Shown piece by piece: positions 20,614 to 62,416 of a stretch of 64,000 nucleotides of DNA. Under the pieces are notes generated by a model that saw nothing but the letters and a program-made list of their open reading frames with translations, searched no databases and was not told where the DNA came from. The stretch spans positions 32,001 through 96,000 of the IMG/VR virus record IMGVR_UViG_3300028591_000005; one strand, written 5' to 3'. Numbering within the stretch: the first letter of the stretch is position 1; every line of letters starts with the position of its first letter. The position numbers and the translations under genes are program-made. The DNA is from a virus (lineage: Duplodnaviria > Caudoviricetes).

Positions 20614-20692
20614 AATTCTTTAGCTTGACATTTTCAAAAATTTTTGTTATAATATTTATAGAATAAAAAATATGTTACTGCTAAAGAATTTT
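20612..20692 (+). promoter_or_regulatory. Consensus promoter (20625-20653) enclosed by a perfect 13-bp inverted repeat
   Basis: AAAATTCTTTAGC (20612-20624) [TTGACA-17-TATAAT] GCTAAAGAATTTT (20680-20692). Confidence 0.7.
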
Positions 20693-20927
20693 TGGACAAA
20701 CGTAGTAAATTAATTACTTATATTTTTTATATTATTTAGAAGAAAGAAATTCTCTCTTTCTTTAATGCAAATTCTTTGCATTTAATTTTCCCTTTTATTT
20801 ATTTAATTTTATATTTCTTTCTAAATAGGGATTTTTATGCCTATTTATCAATTTGGATTTTTCTATCCAGGATCACACACTTTTTGTTTGAAAATTCTTA
20901 GAAGTAACGAGTTCTAAGGAGGAAAAA

Positions 20928-21386
20928 ATGAATAATTTTACGGCTAATTATGCCCAAAGAAACCAATTTTCCAATCCTTACTATAATGTAAACCCAACTT
21001 CAGTAGCCGGTGCTACAACGAACAATATCATATGGGTACAAGGAATTGAAGGTGCGAAGGCCTGGCAGCTTAATCCTAACAGTATGGTTATTTTATTAGA
21101 TAGCGAAGTTGAAGGGAAAATGTACATTAAGGTAAGTGACAATATTGGAATGAGTTCACTAAGAATTTTTAATTATGTAGAAGAAATACCTTCTACTAAT
21201 AATTCTGTAACTGTAAACAATGAATTGGATCTATCGCAATATGTGCGAAAAGATGAACTTCAAACATTGATAAAGGAGGTTATAGATAGTGAACAATCTA
21301 TATCAGGAACTGCGGAGGGGCCAAACTCAAGCAGCACAACCCCAGTTCCCGCAAAACCAAAGGTCGTTACCGTCCTTAAAAAGTAA
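20928..21386 (+). CDS. Conserved hypothetical protein, gene 1 of Cys/Gly-rich operon
   Basis: 152 aa; N/Q-rich N-terminus, 'WVQGIEGAKAW...LLDSE...YIK..D..G' core; AAGGAGG RBS. Confidence 0.75.
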   Translation: MNNFTANYAQRNQFSNPYYNVNPTSVAGATTNNIIWVQGIEGAKAWQLNPNSMVILLDSEVEGKMYIKVSDNIGMSSLRIFNYVEEIPSTNNSVTVNNELDLSQYVRKDELQTLIKEVIDSEQSISGTAEGPNSSSTTPVPAKPKVVTVLKK

Positions 21387-21576
21387 TATGACTCAAATTC
21401 AAGAACTTCTTAAAAATTCTAATCCTAATTCTATTGTTCAAACTCTTCTGAACAACAATCCAAAAATGAAAAACATTATGCAATTAATGAATTCAAGCGG
21501 AATGACTCCTAAACAATTCTTTTATCAATATGCACAACAGAATGGCATAGATCCAGAACAATTTCTTAACTCATAG
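21289..21576 (+). CDS. Q/N/M-rich small helical protein, gene 2
   Basis: 95 aa; GTG start with AAGGAGG RBS; ends 'FYQYAQQNGIDPEQFL'. Confidence 0.7.
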   Translation: MNNLYQELRRGQTQAAQPQFPQNQRSLPSLKSNMTQIQELLKNSNPNSIVQTLLNNNPKMKNIMQLMNSSGMTPKQFFYQYAQQNGIDPEQFLNS

Positions 21577-21588
21577 GAGGTAAATAAT

Positions 21589-22299
21589 ATGGGTGAAAGT
21601 GGACTTAGTGCTAGTGATGTTGCTTTATTAAGTGATAAGAATGGAATGGGCTGTTTTGGAGATTCTTCTTTCTTTTGGATTTTTGCATTATTAATTCTTG
21701 CAGGTGGCGGCTTCGGCGGACTTAACTGGGGAAATAATGGACTTGCTAATGCTATTGGTTATGAAAATTTAGCTACTTCGAATGAAGTTCAGAGAGGCTT
21801 TGATAATCAGAATTCTATGGCTAATCAGAGAGAAATTCTTGCAGCTGTAAATGATGCTTCTGCAAGAGGTATTGCTACTACAAATCAAGTTTATCACGAT
21901 GTAGTTTCTTATATTGGAGATAAATATTCTGAATTAGATAGAGACATTTTAGGAGTAGGTTCTGCTGTTCAGCAGTCAATAGCAAATCAGAATGAATGCT
22001 GCTGCTCAACTAAAATGCTTATTCAGGGTGTTGCTGCAGAGACTAATGCAAATATTGCACAGAATCGTTATGATGCAGCTCTCAATACTGCAGCTATTAA
22101 TGCTAATACTACAGCACAGACTCAAAAGATTCTCGATGCAATCACAGGAAATAGAATGGCAGATATGCAGCAACAGATAAATGCACTTGAGCTTCAGAAT
22201 CAACTTGCTTCTGTTGTACGTTATCCTAACAATACTTTTTACGCTGTACCATCTCCTTGTTTTAATACAGGATGTGGATGCGGATGCGGAAATATCTGA
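21589..22299 (+). CDS. Gly/Cys-rich coiled-coil protein with hydrophobic N-terminal segment, gene 3
   Basis: 236 aa; FFWIFALLILAGGGFGG, long helical region, ECCCS, C-terminal GCGCGC. Confidence 0.8.
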   Translation: MGESGLSASDVALLSDKNGMGCFGDSSFFWIFALLILAGGGFGGLNWGNNGLANAIGYENLATSNEVQRGFDNQNSMANQREILAAVNDASARGIATTNQVYHDVVSYIGDKYSELDRDILGVGSAVQQSIANQNECCCSTKMLIQGVAAETNANIAQNRYDAALNTAAINANTTAQTQKILDAITGNRMADMQQQINALELQNQLASVVRYPNNTFYAVPSPCFNTGCGCGCGNI

Positions 22300-22318
22300 T
22301 GAATAATTAATTAGGCTA

Positions 22319-22344
22319 GGGCGTCGTGTCTTAGACCGACGCCC
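22319..22344 (+). other. GC-rich intra-operon stem-loop
   Basis: GGGCGTCG...CGACGCCC in an AT-rich spacer. Confidence 0.65.
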
Positions 22345-22371
22345 GCACTTTATTTTTAAGGAGGAAAACTA

Positions 22372-22779
22372 ATGAGTAAATCAGCTATATATACTGCGAA
22401 TATGGCATCACAAGATGTTGCTATTGACGGAGTTATTAATCCAGGAACAGTAGTTAGACGTTTTGGGCCAAATGTGGCATTATCTGGAAATGCAATTCAA
22501 ATTTGTGGTCAAGGATATTATGATGTAGACGCTAGTATTACAGTAGCGCCAACTGCAGTTGGTAATGTAACAATTACTATGTATAAAGATGGAGTTCCAG
22601 TGCAAGGCGCGACTGCAACTGGATCGACCTCTACAGCAGATAATCCTATTAATTTATCAATTACATCTATGGTAAGAGAATTTTGCGGATGCTGCAATAG
22701 TATTTCTAATCTTACTTTTGTTTTAACAGGTACCGATTCTGAAGTATCCAATGTTTCTATTGTAGTAGAAAAATTATAA
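22372..22779 (+). CDS. BclA-CTD/C1q-like beta-sandwich protein, gene 4
   Basis: 135 aa all-beta pattern 'IQI..QGYYDVDASITV...ITMYKDGVPVQGA...LSITSMV...SIVVEKL'; CGCC motif. Confidence 0.5.
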   Translation: MSKSAIYTANMASQDVAIDGVINPGTVVRRFGPNVALSGNAIQICGQGYYDVDASITVAPTAVGNVTITMYKDGVPVQGATATGSTSTADNPINLSITSMVREFCGCCNSISNLTFVLTGTDSEVSNVSIVVEKL

Positions 22780-22802
22780 TAATCTTATAAAAGGAGGTAT
22801 CT

Positions 22803-23366
22803 ATGACAATAGAGGAAATCTTTAGCAATATAAGTCAGCATATGATTGAAGGTCTTATGGTACATTCTCAATTAAGTGATTACTTTGCTTTTATAGGATT
22901 AGACGGATATCAAGAATGTCATAAATATCATTATTTTGAAGAAAATAGTAATTATAAAAAGATATGCGATTATTATTTACATCATTATAATAAATTGATT
23001 TTAGATTTACCTTTTAAGAATCCTGCGGTTATCCCTACAAATTGGTATCAATATAATCGTCAAGATGTAAGTGCTCAAACAAGAAAAACCGCTGTTCAAC
23101 TAGCTTTTGAAACATGGGTTAATTGGGAAAAGGACACTAAAAAATTATATGAAAGATTATATCAAGAATTAATTAATTTAAATGAAATCGCTAGTGCAAA
23201 AGAAATATCTAAATATATTATTGATGTTGATGGAGAATTAAAAGAAGCTTATCAAGAACATCTTGAGTTATCTGCAATAGATTATGATATTTTAAATATA
23301 ATGCAAGAACAAAAAGATATAAAAAAGAAATATCATAAAAAATTAAAGGAGATTAGTTATGATTGA
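22803..23366 (+). CDS. Ferritin-like four-helix-bundle protein, gene 5
   Basis: 187 aa helical; E/H clusters HMIEGLMVH, HKYHYFEE, WEKDTK, DVDGEL. Confidence 0.5.
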   Translation: MTIEEIFSNISQHMIEGLMVHSQLSDYFAFIGLDGYQECHKYHYFEENSNYKKICDYYLHHYNKLILDLPFKNPAVIPTNWYQYNRQDVSAQTRKTAVQLAFETWVNWEKDTKKLYERLYQELINLNEIASAKEISKYIIDVDGELKEAYQEHLELSAIDYDILNIMQEQKDIKKKYHKKLKEISYD

Positions 23367-23529
23367 TATAAATGAAATAAATGAAGAAATTCATAAATTA
23401 GAAAATAGTAATTGTACAACTTATGATATATGTAAGAAATTGGCAATATTATATATTGTAAGAGATCATTATTCTAAAACAATGACTACTCAAACTAATT
23501 CTATGATGAAAACTGCTGCCTCAATTTAA
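23359..23529 (+). CDS. Small hypothetical protein, gene 6 (not in ORF track)
   Basis: 56 aa MIDINEINEEIHKLENSNCTTYDICKKLAILYIVRDHY...; AAGGAG RBS, overlaps gene 5 stop. Confidence 0.7.
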   Translation: MIDINEINEEIHKLENSNCTTYDICKKLAILYIVRDHYSKTMTTQTNSMMKTAASI

Positions 23530-23532
23530 ATA

Positions 23533-23577
23533 AAAAAAAATGCCTTGCTATATTAAAATAGCAAGGCATTTTTTTAT
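23533..23577. terminator. Bidirectional terminator at the convergence of + and - gene blocks
   Basis: A-tract-TGCCTTGCTAT...ATAGCAAGGCA-T-tract. Confidence 0.85.
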
Positions 23578-52918: not shown

Positions 52919-53599
52919 TTATCTAGTTTCAAACCAATGATCTTCTATCTGAAGATGATTGTTTGCCCATTCAAATCTACCTCTCGCAAAATATACGTAA
53001 TCATGTGGATTGCATCCAATGCCTTGTTCTTCCATATATTTTTCAAAAGCAGACTCAGGTGTATCTCTAACTATATAAAGTATAATTTTCATATTGTCAA
53101 TTGATTCTTGAGATACAACATTTCTTGCTTCCCAGGTGGTAAACTGACCTTCTGCACTTAATACTCCATAAATTGTATTTGGATAATATTCACTTATCAA
53201 TCTATTAAGTATTACTTCAATAACTGCTCGTCTACCATCTTCACATTGATTTCCTGCTTCAAGAACTGCAATTCTACATATTAAATCAATATCTTCATCA
53301 GATAAAGAATTGATTATATCATAGTAATAAGTATTTAGTTCTTCTATAACTTTTTCTTCAACTATTTCAACAATTTCTACTTCTTCTATTTCTATAGAAT
53401 TTAAAATAGCTGAAGCGCCTCCGTGTGGAAGCTTAATTGGCTCATCAATTACAGACTCTACTTCTGCAATTTCAGATTGGCTAGTTTCATTTTGCGGTTG
53501 CCAGTCTATACGTTCTATTACTCTAGATACTCCGAATCCAAAAGCAAAGGAAGCTAAACAACAGCAAATGATGAAAAGCCGGGTCTTGACTTGCATCAT
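52919..53599 (-). CDS. SleB/CwlJ-family (Hydrolase_2) cell-wall hydrolase with N-terminal anchor
   Basis: 'LICRIAVLEAG...AV..VILNR...YPNTIYGV...QF', terminal 'IEDHWF'. Confidence 0.8.
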   Translation of the reverse strand: MMQVKTRLFIICCCLASFAFGFGVSRVIERIDWQPQNETSQSEIAEVESVIDEPIKLPHGGASAILNSIEIEEVEIVEIVEEKVIEELNTYYYDIINSLSDEDIDLICRIAVLEAGNQCEDGRRAVIEVILNRLISEYYPNTIYGVLSAEGQFTTWEARNVVSQESIDNMKIILYIVRDTPESAFEKYMEEQGIGCNPHDYVYFARGRFEWANNHLQIEDHWFETR

Positions 53600-59322: not shown

Positions 59323-60078
59323 TTATTTATTTTCAACATCAATAACAAATTCCCAATATAATTTTTCACCTGTTATTGGATGTTTACCAGCACTTTTATG
59401 TTCATTTGATGAATTACATACTCGTCCAATAGAACAAGCAGTTGCAAGACCACACCATCTTGCAGCATCCATCATTGTTTCAAAAATTTCTCCTGTATTA
59501 ATACATTTAACCTTTTTACCACCTTTACTTTTTCTATTTTCAGACATTTTTTCTAATGATTCTTTTGTATGATGTTTACCATAAAAAGGATGCTCTTCAC
59601 CAGCTCTTTTTCCTTTTCTATGTTCGGAAATTAACTGTTTTGATTCTTCAGTATGATGTTTGCCATAAAAAGGATTATTTTCTCCTGAAAATAATTCAGA
59701 CATAAGTTCTCGTTGTTTTTGAGACCAATGTTTACCCCTTTGAGAAATAGAATTAGATTCACCAATTTTCTTTTTTGTTTCTTCGGAATGTCGGAAATTT
59801 TTCCCTCCATCCGTAATATTATATCCAAAATTTTCATCTGTAGAATTATAAAATTTAATTAATTCTTGTTCTTTTTTATTAGCTTCTTCTACAGTTAAAT
59901 TAGTGTATAAAATAATATGTTCAAAATTATCCCAACCATATTTTAAAATTGCATTATAAAATCTTGGTGAAGTTTCATATCCTCTACCATTATCCCATCT
60001 TTTTTCAGGTTTTTGACAAGTTTGTCCTATATAAACTTTTCCATTTATTTTATTTTTATGAATATAAATTGTATACAT
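59323..60078 (-). CDS. Free-standing GIY-YIG homing endonuclease with NUMOD3 repeats
   Basis: YTIY...VYIGQT, GYNITDGG, repeated (N/H)PFYGKHHT.ES. Confidence 0.85.
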   Translation of the reverse strand: MYTIYIHKNKINGKVYIGQTCQKPEKRWDNGRGYETSPRFYNAILKYGWDNFEHIILYTNLTVEEANKKEQELIKFYNSTDENFGYNITDGGKNFRHSEETKKKIGESNSISQRGKHWSQKQRELMSELFSGENNPFYGKHHTEESKQLISEHRKGKRAGEEHPFYGKHHTKESLEKMSENRKSKGGKKVKCINTGEIFETMMDAARWCGLATACSIGRVCNSSNEHKSAGKHPITGEKLYWEFVIDVENK

Positions 60079-60827: not shown

Positions 60828-61067
60828 TTATTCTTCGTCGCCTCTAACCGCATCGAATGTTTTTTCAATCATATCATTATATTTCTTTTTAGATACAGAA
60901 ACAAATGAAGTAAGAAGAGTTTCAATTGCAGCTAAGGTTGCAATTAATTGCTCACCATATGGAATATTCCAAATATTAATAATTGCTGTAATAAAAATTA
61001 CAATAGGCCCAATGTAACGAGCAATAAACTTAAGTACATCATACACTTTACTATTTTCAAATATCAT
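60828..61067 (-). CDS. Holin (two TM, Dp-1-like)
   Basis: 'KVYDVLKFIA...W.IPYGEQ...T' with two hydrophobic segments, coupled to endolysin. Confidence 0.75.
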   Translation of the reverse strand: MIFENSKVYDVLKFIARYIGPIVIFITAIINIWNIPYGEQLIATLAAIETLLTSFVSVSKKKYNDMIEKTFDAVRGDEE

Positions 61068-62416
61068 TAGGGTGCTCCTTTCCGGCCTTCAGCCTTTCCA
61101 AACATTATATAATGTGCATAATACATTTCTCTATTATCACCAAAAGCAGCTACAATATCAGGATATGCATTGGAATAATAAACAGGATCAAATTCAGCAG
61201 AACCTTGCCTAAATTCTTTCATTCCATTATTTTGAAAATGTAACCAAAGTGCATTAATATCATTTCCAAAAGCAGCTTTTAAATCTGCATAATGATCTGA
61301 ATAAAATGCAGGATCAAAAACCGGACTATAATCATATCCATTAATAATGAAACCAGTAGGAGTTTCAAGCTGCTGATTGACTGCAAGTGCAATATTAGGC
61401 ATACACATCATCAGGAAGTTGCCAGGACATGCTTTAGATGCAAACCATCTATGAACAGCCATATTTTGAAGTGAAGCATTTCCTACAAGTTTTGGATTAT
61501 TAGACCATAAAAGTTTAGGTATTCCGTTTCTCTTACAGATATCCGCACAAAGATTAATAATAGAAGTCATTGCTTGAGAGGATACATACCAGTCAGGTCC
61601 GAGAGTTGTATTACTTACTTCTATTGTTATTGAGCGATGGTCATAATCTGAACCTGTCCAACCATTGCATGTTTTATCTCCACCTGTTGTCCATGCTCTA
61701 TATTTCTCAGGAACATACTGCCAAATTTCTCCATTAGAAGAAATTCCATAATGTGAAGATGCTCCGCGCTTAGGATTAGCAAAAAGTTGACCGCATCTTT
61801 TTGCATCATAAGTACCTGCCATACAATGAATAATAATTGTATCAATTTTGTATTTACGTTGTGCAGTGTAGTTAGGTGACCACATAACACCAGTTACTAA
61901 TTTACTATCAGCTACCATTGTGCCTCCTTGATCATATTTTGTTAAATTCCATTTATCTATTACAGCCATTAAATTATCTACATAATTAATAGAAGTTGCA
62001 TAACCGCTATTTTTTAATGCTTGTAAGTATTCTCTCGGAGTTGTTGCAGTTTTTGCTGCATTATATTTACCACTATCAATAAATTGATAATATCCTTGAA
62101 CTCCAGTGTGCATATCTAAAAATTGGAACCATTTTGTAGTTATTGTATAATAACTTCCATCAGGTCTTTGTTCTGCGGAAGTTTCTGTGAAAAAGCCTGA
62201 ATTACAAGTTACTCTATTTTCTTTATATTTAAGTCCAAAATAATTATTTCTGTCATTATGAAGACCTTTATCAGAAGTAACTTTATTAGATGTGCCATAC
62301 CCAGATTCAAGACAAGCTTGAGCAATAATTGCAGAAGCTACACCCCAACCTAAATAATCTCTCCACGCAACCACATGAGGAGCTATTGAGTTAATAAAAT
62401 CTTCTTGTTTACTCAT
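61067..62416 (-). CDS. Endolysin: glucosaminidase + amidase_2 + repeated cell-wall-binding module
   Basis: AQACLESGYG/NNYFGLK/GYAT; IIIHC, ASSHY, SITIE, HRWF..KACPG; two 'FDP..Y...Y.D..AAFG...H....G..E.R' repeats. Confidence 0.88.
   Translation of the reverse strand: MSKQEDFINSIAPHVVAWRDYLGWGVASAIIAQACLESGYGTSNKVTSDKGLHNDRNNYFGLKYKENRVTCNSGFFTETSAEQRPDGSYYTITTKWFQFLDMHTGVQGYYQFIDSGKYNAAKTATTPREYLQALKNSGYATSINYVDNLMAVIDKWNLTKYDQGGTMVADSKLVTGVMWSPNYTAQRKYKIDTIIIHCMAGTYDAKRCGQLFANPKRGASSHYGISSNGEIWQYVPEKYRAWTTGGDKTCNGWTGSDYDHRSITIEVSNTTLGPDWYVSSQAMTSIINLCADICKRNGIPKLLWSNNPKLVGNASLQNMAVHRWFASKACPGNFLMMCMPNIALAVNQQLETPTGFIINGYDYSPVFDPAFYSDHYADLKAAFGNDINALWLHFQNNGMKEFRQGSAEFDPVYYSNAYPDIVAAFGDNREMYYAHYIMFGKAEGRKGAP

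What the first reader, a model, noticed from the sequence alone, without database searches (positions are those of the whole stretch)
20928..23529. Self-contained six-gene operon resembling a spore-surface or disulfide-linked fibre kit in a lytic phage
Seen: six tightly coupled + strand genes between their own promoters and a bidirectional terminator, unrelated to the tail or replication genes either side. Gene 3 has a hydrophobic/Gly segment (FFWIFALLILAGGGFGG), a long helical region, ECCCS and a terminal GCGCGC (8 Cys). Gene 4 is all-beta with CGCC. Gene 5 has ferritin-like E/H clusters. Genes 1 and 2 are N/Q-rich. Established: Cys-rich disulfide-crosslinked proteins, BclA/C1q-type trimeric domains and ferritin-like (CotJC/CotF-type) proteins are components of Firmicutes spore coat, exosporium and endospore appendages. 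Inference: the phage encodes a polymerising structure, either decorating infected cells or spores or encasing virions, with gene 3 as bulk subunit, gene 4 as tip/adhesin and gene 5 as redox or crosslinking helper. I recall similar clusters in gut Clostridia phages without an assigned function; that is not verified here.
Basis: partly seen in the sequence, partly recalled or inferred. Interest (0 to 1): 0.88.

Follow-up and report, generated by a model that had tools for sequence, protein, structure and literature searches.

The report
Portable phage stalk-and-knob accessory cassette

Summary
Six + strand ORFs (20928-23529) lie between a perfect sigma-70-type promoter (20625-20653) and a bidirectional terminator (23534-23575).

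Two fold guesses were right:
- Gene 4 models as a BclA-CTD/C1q jelly-roll (Z 18.4).
- Gene 5 models as a classical five-helix ferritin (Z 20.3), closer to Ftn/Bfr than to CotJC.

Genes 1-3 have no Pfam, NCBIfam or PDB relatives, yet the families are large: more than 7,800 gene-3 clusters and 1,207 gene-1 representatives.

In 11 independent loci, genes 1-2-3 always occur together and in order.
- A Cys-motif beta protein follows in 10 of them (BclA-like in 8).
- The fifth gene varies (ferritin-like, DUF7841 or other).
- Gene 6 is lineage-specific.

The module sits at the end of late operons, beside tail-fibre or holin/endolysin genes. In TAG-recoded relatives gene 3 is TAG-gated.

My best reading (about 0.4) is a late-made, Cys-linked helical stalk (gene 3) carrying a C1q-like knob (gene 4), acting on the envelope or the virion. 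The spore-kit reading is neither supported nor excluded (about 0.07).

Earlier notes of this scan describe the same cassette on other DNA.

The parts
20625..20653 (+). Promoter of the operon, TTGACA-17-TATAAT with TG extension
   Evidence: 12/12 consensus match. The same promoter class occurs 16 times in the window against 2 expected, mostly before - strand replication genes.
20654..20927 (+). Leader of about 275 nt, structured, ending in the AAGGAGG ribosome-binding site of g1
   Evidence: RNA fold z-score -3.46 against shuffles. No Rfam family at E<=1.
20928..21386 (+). g1: N/Q/P/Y-rich N-terminus, conserved core (WVQGxEGAKAY..PNS.V.L.DSE..YIK..D..GM..LR.F.Y.E), then a YVxKDEL helix
   Evidence: phrog_21718, E 9e-16. 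1,207 representatives at E<=1e-3. Alignment A3. No Pfam or PDB match.
21289..21576 (+). g2: small N/Q-rich helical protein with a GTG start, overlapping g1 by 98 nt
   Evidence: Shine-Dalgarno AAAGGAGG 9 nt upstream. Its N-terminus is conserved in L003, and a g2-like gene sits in the same position in all 11 loci read.
21589..22299 (+). g3: acidic N-terminal peptide, hydrophobic/Gly-rich segment, about 150-aa helical region with an invariant CCC, and a conserved tail VVRYP..Y...PFC..CGC
   Evidence: phrog_16490. More than 7,800 clusters, all viral or metagenomic. 124 IMG/VR stretches. Invariant columns in A4/A5. No PDB or Pfam relative.
22372..22779 (+). g4: stand-alone BclA-CTD/C1q-type jelly-roll with a conserved CxCC loop
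   Evidence: AF2 pLDDT 93.4. Z 18.4 to BclA CTD, 18.2 to F-BclA, 16.4 to BxpB. Foldseek E 1e-8. Stand-alone phage look-alikes reach TM 0.9. The prophage orthologue hits Pfam BclA_C at E 8e-9.
22803..23366 (+). g5: ferritin-fold protein (four-helix bundle plus a fifth helix) with invariant H13, H21, H43, E47, E109
   Evidence: AF2 pLDDT 95.3. Z 20.3, rmsd 1.7 A over 161 residues to 5ls9. Alignment A2. Present in 5 of 11 loci.
23359..23529 (+). g6: 56-aa ORF overlapping the end of g5, specific to this lineage
   Evidence: Called as a gene in the identical contigs L102/L103. Absent from L003 and from all distant loci. No family match.
23534..23575 (.). Bidirectional intrinsic terminator shared with the convergent dUTPase gene
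   Evidence: 18-bp stem with T-runs on both strands.

Best explanation
The operon is one copy of a portable, undescribed accessory module of phages of gut and rumen Bacillota.

Composition:
- The fixed core is g1-g2-g3.
- A small Cys-motif beta protein nearly always follows. Here it is a BclA/C1q-type knob, g4.
- A variable fifth gene comes next. Here it is a ferritin-fold protein, g5.
- g6 is a local addition.

Inferred mechanism:
- The proteins are made in the cytoplasm late in lytic infection. None has a signal peptide.
- g3 is tethered through its hydrophobic, Gly-rich N-terminal segment, probably to the cytoplasmic membrane. Its short acidic N-tail suggests an N-out, C-in topology.
- The helical body of g3 carries the g4 knob. 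The two are coupled through their conserved Cys clusters (CCC and C..CGC in g3, CxCC in g4), either as a shared metal site while reduced or as disulfides once exposed by lysis.
- g1 and g2 are adaptor or assembly factors.
- g5 is an optional metal-handling add-on.

The assembly acts at the cell envelope or on the released particles at or after lysis. It is not a spore-specific kit.

Shown: the genes, the folds of g4 and g5, conservation, gene order, genomic position and TAG gating.

Inferred: tethering, the g3-g4 contact, the chemistry of the Cys clusters, and the site and purpose of action.
For: Conservation. g1-g2-g3 occur in the same order in 11 independent loci, 30-62% GC, from a 36-kb contig to a contig of about 190 kb, and in prophages:
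- window
- L003
- L010/L099
- L014/L105
- L048/L107
- L089
- L093
- G307 prophage (hhalign 96% for both g1 and g4)
- G255
- G275
- G810

Cys partner. The gene after g3 carries a CxCC-type motif whether it is BclA-like (8 loci) or an unrelated Cys-rich protein (L014, G255). The motif is the only part that aligns. CCC and the C-terminal Cys of g3 are invariant or nearly so.

Knob fold. Z 18.4 to BclA CTD.

Precedent. CC motifs couple ENA fibres to C1q-headed tip fibrils (PMC12357932, read).

Late expression and position:
- The module lies directly after holin and endolysin genes in G307, after endolysin and holin genes (one 80-aa ORF between) in G255, and after endolysin, a holin-like ORF and the small regulator in L089.
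- It lies after a holin in L010.
- It lies after tail-fibre genes in the window, L014, L048 and G810.
- g3 of L026 has two in-frame TAGs. Several other loci also have in-frame stops that translate through as TAG=Q. Such genes are thought to be translated only late (PMC9523058).

In vivo presence. RNA-library contigs from sheep gut hold exact pieces of g1, g3, g4 and g5.
Against: - There is no direct evidence that g3 and g4 touch.
- g3 was not folded. Its many invariant polar residues (RGFDNQN, DKYxELxRD) suit a compact helical domain or an enzyme-like site as well as a stalk.
- The hydrophobic segment has no flanking positive charges, so membrane insertion is uncertain.
- L089 lacks g4 altogether, so the knob is dispensable.
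- In this phage the operon has an early-type host promoter. It lies 37 kb from the lysis pair at 60828-62416.
- DNA carry-over in the RNA libraries is not excluded.
Confidence: 0.4

Rival explanations
1. Lysis-associated membrane complex. g3 is a T4-T-like or i-spanin-like single-pass membrane protein. Its soluble partners g1, g2 and g4 tune lysis timing or help breach an outer layer, such as an S-layer or thick wall, at the end of infection.
For: - The module lies directly downstream of holin and endolysin genes in the G307 prophage. That lysin carries an SLH domain.
- It also lies downstream of the lysis genes in G255 (one 80-aa ORF between) and L089 (a small regulator between), and directly after a Hol44 holin in L010.
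- The architecture is an N-terminal hydrophobic segment plus a helical region with conserved Cys, as in Rz-type i-spanins (from my own knowledge).
- Firmicute lysis cassettes are known to hold extra proteins of unclear role, such as XepA and XhlA (from my own knowledge).
Against: - This phage has a canonical glucosaminidase-amidase lysin (61067-62416) with an adjacent 79-aa two-segment holin-like gene (60828-61067), 37 kb away.
- No lipoprotein partner or lipobox is present in the cassette.
- In the window, L014, L048 and G810 the neighbour is a tail-fibre gene, not a lysis gene.
- The hosts look monoderm.
Confidence: 0.2
2. Receptor masking or superinfection exclusion. This would be a membrane-tethered complex made from a host-type promoter. 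It blocks entry of further phage, or stops progeny from being lost on cell debris, like Llp of T5 or Cor, which are encoded next to receptor-binding genes.
For: - The unit is moron-like, with its own consensus promoter of the early class and its own terminator.
- It lies beside tail-fibre genes in several phages.
- It travels between unrelated phage backbones.
Against: - Four or five co-conserved genes is far more than known exclusion systems need.
- The partners lack signal peptides.
- TAG gating in relatives points to late, not early or lysogenic, expression.
Confidence: 0.12
3. Virion component. In this reading g3 and g4 form a fibre or whisker, or an ejection device, on the particle. The hydrophobic Gly-rich N-terminus would then be buried, or used to enter the host membrane.
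For: - The module is embedded in structural gene blocks, on the same strand as tail-fibre genes.
- C1q-type knobs are common tips of phage fibres.
- The genes are TAG-gated like structural genes.
Against: - In prophages the module lies after the lysis genes.
- In this phage it has a separate host-type promoter.
- I found no fusion of g3 or g4 to any known virion protein.
- No cultured phage carries it: tblastn of g3 found only one unannotated 6.7-kb record among 50,697. No proteomic data exist.
Confidence: 0.15
4. One reading: a kit whose products are laid onto host spores or cells, or polymerise around virions, as a disulfide-linked coat or fibre.
For: - g4 is closest to the exosporium proteins BclA, F-BclA and BxpB/ExsFA.
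- The proteins are Cys-rich and low-complexity and lack signal peptides, as in mother-cell coat assembly.
- Fifth genes in relatives are R/D/Y- or G/Y/R-rich.
- The integrated copy in G307 shares a 443-kb contig with spoIVA, and G255, G259 and G275 also carry spoIVA.
- The phage also encodes a SleB/CwlJ-type Hydrolase_2 protein.
Against: - The promoter is sigma-A type, not sigma-E or sigma-K, in a phage without an integrase.
- Late lytic gating is seen in relatives.
- No spore-coat, exosporium or Ena Pfam family matches any gene.
- g5 is a true-ferritin look-alike, not CotJC or CotF.
- Four bins that hold the module lack spoIVA. This is weak, since at least one of them is a binned phage contig.
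Confidence: 0.07

Closest known systems
BclA C-terminal domain and the F-BclA tip of Bacillus exosporium and F-ENA appendages (PF18573; PDB 1wck, 3tyj, 9h38)
   Same: g4 has the same jelly-roll: Z 18.2-18.4, rmsd 1.8-2.0 A over 123-126 residues, 16-21% identity. A prophage orthologue reaches Pfam BclA_C at E 8e-9. In ENA systems, Cys-Cys motifs couple such knobs to their fibres (PMC12357932).
   Different: g4 is a stand-alone 135-aa domain with no collagen-like stalk and no exosporium leader. It is phage-encoded, and the window protein itself gives no Pfam hit. Its presumed stalk is a separate helical protein with a hydrophobic N-terminus.
ExsFA/BxpB exosporium anchor proteins (PDB 8d02, 7r1m, 9h3d)
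   Same: They are stand-alone C1q-type proteins of similar size, which bind a peptide of a partner fibre. Fold match is Z 15.3-16.4.
   Different: No sequence relationship was shown. No ExsY/CotY-type lattice partner is present. The context is a phage late operon.
Prokaryotic ferritins (Ftn/Bfr; PDB 5ls9, 3kx9, 3qz3)
   Same: g5 has the four-helix bundle, the long B-C loop and a fifth helix. Z is 20.3, rmsd 1.7 A over 161 residues. Conserved His/Glu lie on helices A, B and C, with Asp/Glu on D.
   Different: There is no Pfam Ferritin hit. The conserved set (H13, H21, H43, E47, E109, E145) is not the canonical E / ExxH / E / ExxH ferroxidase pattern. Cage formation and iron binding are untested.
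Rz-type i-spanins and the T4 holin T (single-pass phage membrane proteins with large helical, Cys-bearing domains)
   Same: g3 has an N-terminal hydrophobic segment, a long helical region and conserved Cys. It is often encoded beside lysis genes.
   Different: There is no homology, no o-spanin or antiholin-like partner, and no positively charged flank. The phage has its own lysin-holin pair elsewhere, and the hosts appear monoderm.
Phage morons (self-contained promoter-gene-terminator inserts)
   Same: The operon has its own consensus promoter and terminator, sits between functional modules, and moves between unrelated phage backbones.
   Different: It holds five or six co-ordinated genes rather than one or two. 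In other phages it is part of the late operon and TAG-gated, which does not fit lysogenic expression.

Membership tests
BclA_C / C1q-TNF jelly-roll (g4) | Ten-strand jelly-roll fold of the C1q/TNF type | tested here: met
   AF2 pLDDT 93.4. Z 18.4, rmsd 2.0 A over 126 of 135 residues to 3tyj/1wck. Foldseek E 1e-8.
BclA_C / C1q-TNF jelly-roll (g4) | Sequence match to Pfam PF18573 above the gathering score | tested here: inconclusive
   The window g4 gives no hit at E<=1. The G307 orthologue scores E 8.3e-9 and 35.8 bits against a cut-off of 38, and it aligns to the g4 profile at 96% probability.
BclA-type exosporium glycoprotein | N-terminal exosporium-targeting leader plus a collagen-like GXX stalk before the knob | tested here: not met
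   In the sequence the jelly-roll starts at about residue 5, with no GXX repeats. The Pfam Collagen model does not match.
BclA_C / C1q-TNF jelly-roll (g4) | Homotrimer | not tested
   No homo-oligomer model was run. The single complex job gave no verdict.
Ferritin (Ftn/Bfr) (g5) | Four-helix bundle with a long B-C loop and a short fifth helix | tested here: met
   AF2 pLDDT 95.3, helices 3-30, 34-62, 91-125, 129-158 and 163-182. Z 17-20.3 to 17 ferritin/bacterioferritin representatives.
Ferritin (Ftn/Bfr) (g5) | Canonical ferroxidase ligands (E on helix A, ExxH on B, E on C, ExxH or ExxE on D) and a Pfam PF00210 match | tested here: not met
   No Pfam hit. The invariant residues are H13, H21, H43, E47 and E109, with E145 and D141 nearly invariant. 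This is a different pattern, and a metal site is still possible.
CotJC / Mn-catalase and CotF spore-coat ferritin-like proteins (g5) | Match to the Mn_catalase (PF05067) or Coat_F (PF07875) model, or best fold match to them | tested here: not met
   No Pfam hit. Mn catalase 1jku scores Z 13.3, 7 units below the ferritins.
Ena endospore-appendage subunits (DUF3992, DUF4183) | Pfam domain match in a cassette protein | tested here: not met
   No hit for g1-g6. No hit for the Cys-rich type-B proteins of L014 and G255.
Ena endospore-appendage subunits | Conserved CC motif used for covalent coupling between subunits | tested here: inconclusive
   CCC in g3 and CxCC in g4 are conserved. Whether they form disulfides cannot be tested with these tools.
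Two-component spanin | An i-spanin plus an outer-membrane lipoprotein partner with a lipobox | tested here: not met
   No cassette protein has a signal peptide or a lipobox Cys near its N-terminus (sequences).
Holin | Small membrane protein encoded with the endolysin and matching a holin family | tested here: not met
   g3 matches no holin family. A separate 79-aa holin-like gene abuts the lysin at 60828-61067. Relatives carry PF16079, PF05105 or PF04531 holins as well as g3.
Moron | Own promoter and terminator, inserted between modules | tested here: met

The most novel reading that the evidence does not exclude
The module builds a new kind of phage-made material. Signal-less, Cys-rich and low-complexity proteins (g1, g3, g4 and the variable fifth gene) would assemble in the cytoplasm on a hydrophobic anchor and harden on lysis. 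The result would be a coat or fibre layer on virions, on cell debris or on host spores. That would be a viral counterpart of spore-coat or exosporium assembly, aiding persistence or adhesion in the gut.
Probability: 0.12. Interest if true: 0.9.

Novelty: categorically new. Interest (0 to 1): 0.62.

Why it matters
A fixed-order gene module sits in thousands of rumen and gut phage genomes. It spans 30-62% GC, contigs from 36 to about 190 kb, and both virulent and temperate phages. Yet it has no described function, no Pfam family for its three core proteins, and no cultured representative. It is therefore one of the larger coherent blocks of phage 'dark matter' in anaerobic gut systems.

It joins a BclA/C1q-type knob, conserved Cys clusters and, often, a ferritin-fold protein. 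Working out its role would add a new step to the late phase of infection of gut Bacillota, whichever reading holds: envelope complex, particle decoration, exclusion device or coat-like material. It would also annotate many thousands of hypothetical proteins.

The G307-type prophage, in a Clostridia genome that carries the sporulation gene spoIVA, offers a tractable entry point.

Tried and rejected
- **Complex prediction.** g3 residues 56-236 x3 plus g4 x3 gave no verdict (score 0.00). It was rebuilt with code-11 sequences only.
- **Python.** The machine was lost. A systematic tblastn synteny table over the 80 IMG/VR loci could not be made, so synteny was read by eye in 11 loci.
- **Cultured phages.**
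  - blastn of the operon against cultured and deposited phages found nothing.
  - tblastn of g3 found one unannotated 6.7-kb record.
  - tblastn of the 1119-aa tail protein found nothing.
- **Sequence searches against solved structures and named clusters.**
  - g1, g3 and g5 and the profiles A3 and A4 gave nothing meaningful against PDB sequences. The best was E 0.018, to a coiled-coil HR1 mimic.
  - The Atlas 'named' search for g3 gave no usable hit.
- **Pairwise profile comparisons.**
  - The g5 profile against DUF7841 proteins showed no relationship.
  - The g4 profile against the type-B Cys protein aligned only at the CxCC motif.
- **Rfam** on the leader and operon found nothing above noise.
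- **Host assignment from MAG labels** was rejected.
  - The labels are incoherent: Alphaproteobacteria, Bacteroidales, Saccharibacteria, Atopobiaceae.
  - The g3 profile was not found in 300 other Coriobacteriia or 400 other Bacteroidia genomes.
  - The G810 contig is a whole phage.
  - So the spoIVA-negative bins are not proof of non-sporulating hosts.
- **'The cassette replaces the endolysin'** was rejected. The lysin and a holin-like gene lie at 60828-62416.
- **Double-glycine bacteriocin leader in g3.** I considered the resemblance of LSASDVALLS and dropped it, because the GG site is not conserved.
- **More loci.** Pattern-based searches for g1 and g4 in IMG/VR found only 1-2 loci, and the A3 alignment was too diverse to search with.
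- **Literature.** I found no paper on DUF7841 or the three PHROG ids, and none describing the cassette.
- **RNA-library contigs** cannot rank expression or exclude DNA carry-over.


Full report
**1. The observation**

Six + strand ORFs occupy 20928-23529 exactly as described.
- g2 most likely starts at GTG 21289, 9 nt after an AAAGGAGG, so it overlaps g1 by 98 nt. The same N-terminal extension is present in the relative L003.
- A 12/12 TTGACA-17-TATAAT promoter with a TG extension lies at 20625-20653.
- An 18-bp-stem bidirectional terminator lies at 23534-23575, shared with the convergent dUTPase gene.
- About 275 nt of structured leader (z -3.46) precede g1. No Rfam family matches it.

The window is bases 32001-96000 of a complete 145,977-bp virus record with terminal repeats. 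The record has no tyrosine integrase. Upstream lie tail genes, an XkdX-like ORF and a RuvC-type resolvase. Downstream, on the other strand, lie dUTPase, NrdD and a PolIII-alpha-type polymerase.

**2. What the proteins are**

No Pfam or NCBIfam model matches any of the six. Only PHROGs of unknown function match: g1 phrog_21718, g3 phrog_16490 and g4 phrog_20016.

*g4.* With a 25-row alignment, g4 folds with pLDDT 93.4.
- It is closest to the C-terminal domains of BclA and F-BclA: Z 18.2-18.4, rmsd 1.8-2.0 A over 123-126 residues.
- BxpB/ExsFA follow at Z 15.3-16.4, and C1q/TNF proteins at 14-16.
- Stand-alone look-alikes of about 135-145 aa occur in many uncultured gut phages at TM 0.9.
- Its conserved CxCC lies in the least confident stretch of the model, at residues 104-111.

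*g5.* g5 folds with pLDDT 95.3 into a four-helix bundle with a long B-C loop and a fifth helix.
- True ferritins and bacterioferritins fill the first 17 ranks of an all-against-representatives search. Z is 17-20.3, and the best match has rmsd 1.7 A over 161 residues.
- Dps proteins follow at about 14-15.6, and Mn catalase at 13.3.
- Its invariant residues are H13, H21, H43, E47 and E109, with E145 and D141 nearly invariant. They lie on all four helices but are not the canonical ferroxidase set.

*g3.* The g3 family is very large: more than 7,800 clusters at 90% identity, all viral or metagenomic. Its features, in order along the protein:
- a short acidic N-terminal peptide with an invariant Asp;
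- a hydrophobic, Gly-rich segment without flanking positive charges;
- conserved polar motifs (RGFDNQN, DKYxELxRD);
- an invariant CCC;
- a conserved tail, VVRYP..Y...PFC..CGC.

*g1.* g1 has 1,207 representatives at E<=1e-3. It has a conserved core of about 55 residues behind a Q/N/P/Y-rich N-terminus. Neither protein, nor the profile of either family, matches anything in the PDB sequence set.

**3. Conservation as a cluster**

I read 11 independent loci by eye, because the script machine was lost. They are the window, L003, L010/L099, L014/L105, L048/L107, L089, L093, and the genome-derived G307, G255, G275 and G810.

| Position | What is there | Loci |
|---|---|---|
| g1-g2-g3 | present, in this order | all 11 |
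| Next gene | BclA/C1q-like | 8 |
| Next gene | unrelated 121-133-aa Cys-rich protein; only the CxCC motif aligns | 2 |
| Next gene | absent | 1 (L089) |
| Fifth gene | ferritin-like | window, L003, L048, L089, L093 |
| Fifth gene | DUF7841, PF25223 (Pfam hit in two, by eye in G810) | G307, G255; G810 |
| Fifth gene | G/Y/R-rich protein | G275 |

- The G307 next gene hits Pfam BclA_C at E 8e-9, and hhalign gives 96%.
- g6 occurs only in near-identical contigs.
- A small HTH or Sigma70_r4 gene directly precedes g1 in L089 (E 3e-7) and probably in G810. The window has none.

So the core is g1-g3 plus a Cys-motif partner. The 'six-gene' unit is a local elaboration.

**4. Where it sits and when it is made**

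- In G307 the module directly follows a PF05105 holin and a C39_2-SH3-SLH lysin, at the end of a prophage. The prophage is integrated next to smpB and RNase R on a 443-kb contig.
- In G255 it follows an NlpC/P60 lysin, an XhlA-like ORF (identified by eye, no Pfam match) and a Phage_holin_1 gene, with one further 80-aa ORF before g1. It precedes the integrase.
- In L089 it follows a GH25 lysin, a holin-like ORF and the small Sigma70_r4 gene.
- In L010/L099, a 143.5-kb relative of this phage, it follows a Hol44 holin.
- In the window, L014, L048 and G810 the upstream neighbour is a tail-fibre gene.
- Several relatives need TAG read as an amino acid inside g3. L026 has two TAGs. Such genes are thought to be translated only late in infection (PMC9523058).

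In this phage, however, the operon has a promoter of the class found 16 times in the window against 2 expected. Eleven of those copies lie before - strand replication genes, and only one lies inside the 19-kb tail block. The phage's own lysis pair lies 37 kb away: a glucosaminidase-amidase at 61067-62416 and a 79-aa holin-like gene at 60828-61067.

Sheep-gut RNA libraries contain exact contig pieces of g1, g3, g4 and g5. This is consistent with transcription but does not prove it.

**5. Hosts**

MAG labels of the g3 hits are taxonomically incoherent. With the g3 profile:

| Class sampled | Genomes with a match |
|---|---|
| Clostridia | 4 of 399 (plus the seed) |
| Bacilli | 2 of 399 (plus the seed) |
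| Coriobacteriia | 0 of 300 others |
| Bacteroidia | 0 of 400 others |

The wording should be 'not found in those searched'.

SpoIVA is present in G307 (on the same contig as the prophage), G255, G259, G275 and G001. It is absent from G810, G1087, G004 and G005. However, the G810 contig is an entire phage genome. So those bins say little about the host.

I conclude that the hosts are Bacillota. I could neither confirm nor refute the statement in earlier scan notes that many hosts cannot sporulate.

**6. Interpretation**

The data fit a portable late accessory module. Its conserved chemistry has three parts:
- a hydrophobic anchor on a helical, Cys-bearing protein;
- a Cys-motif partner, usually a C1q-type knob;
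- two small N/Q-rich proteins.

By analogy with ENA fibres, where CC motifs couple fibres to C1q-headed tips (PMC12357932), I favour a stalk-and-knob assembly joined through the Cys clusters. None of the partners has a signal peptide. The N-tail of g3 is short and acidic, so assembly on the cytoplasmic face of the membrane, or on particles, is more likely than secretion. I put this at about 0.4.

| Rival reading | Confidence |
|---|---|
| Lysis-associated membrane complex | 0.2 |
| Virion component | 0.15 |
| Receptor masking or exclusion | 0.12 |

The ferritin-fold g5 is optional and may be a separate metal-handling add-on.

**7. Novelty**

I found no paper on the cassette, on DUF7841 or on the PHROG ids. 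No cultured phage carries g3. The scan's own earlier notes describe the same cassette on other DNA and reach a similar 'stalk-and-knob, not shown to be spore-tied' view. Those notes are not independent evidence.

As a system it matches nothing described, although g4 and g5 belong to known fold families.

Noticed in passing
window 52919-53599 (-): A 226-aa protein with a Hydrolase_2 domain (SleB/CwlJ-type cell-wall hydrolase, E 1.5e-9) sits among the gyrase and ligase genes, away from the lysis pair.
   Followed up: no
window 60828-62416 (-): This is the canonical lysis pair: a 449-aa Glucosaminidase + Amidase_2 lysin whose stop abuts a 79-aa holin-like gene with two hydrophobic segments. It lies downstream of a fibre-like gene on the - strand.
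   Followed up: partly
window, 16 sites (e.g. 7568, 20019, 20625, 25722, 33484, 46662, 60709): There is a family of near-perfect TTGACA-17-TATAAT promoters with a shared A/T-rich spacer ending in TG. It occurs 16 times against 2 expected, mostly before - strand replication genes.
   Followed up: partly
window 20654-20927: The operon has a leader of about 275 nt that folds better than shuffles (z -3.46) and has no Rfam match.
   Followed up: partly
L026 6169-6171 and 6397-6399; also L017, L022, L046, L050, L065, L072: Relatives carry in-frame TAG codons inside g3, so they are TAG-recoded phages. The contigs reach 181-190 kb.
   Followed up: partly
L099 11128-11520 and 12128-12388; L101: The called genes just after g4 in the 143.5-kb relative contain stops under table 11. 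One contig matches the g3 query only with TGA=W, so this lineage may be TGA-recoded.
   Followed up: no
L115 8542-9111 (-), L116 8393-9175 (-), L127 4528-4992 (+): DUF7841 (PF25223) proteins take the place of the ferritin-like gene in three loci (Pfam hits in L115 and L116; L127 by eye). Some have R/D/E/Y-rich low-complexity N-termini.
   Followed up: partly
L089 7133-7366 (+); L127 2467-2673 (+): A small Sigma70_r4 or HTH gene directly precedes g1 in some phages, which suggests a dedicated regulator. The window has none.
   Followed up: partly
G005 (Lachnospiraceae MAG), six contigs: One 3.8-Mb bin holds six separate g3-like matches on different contigs, so several cassette-bearing phages were binned together.
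   Followed up: no
window 59323-60078 (-): A GIY-YIG/NUMOD3 homing-endonuclease gene lies between the RNase H and gyrase B genes.
   Followed up: no
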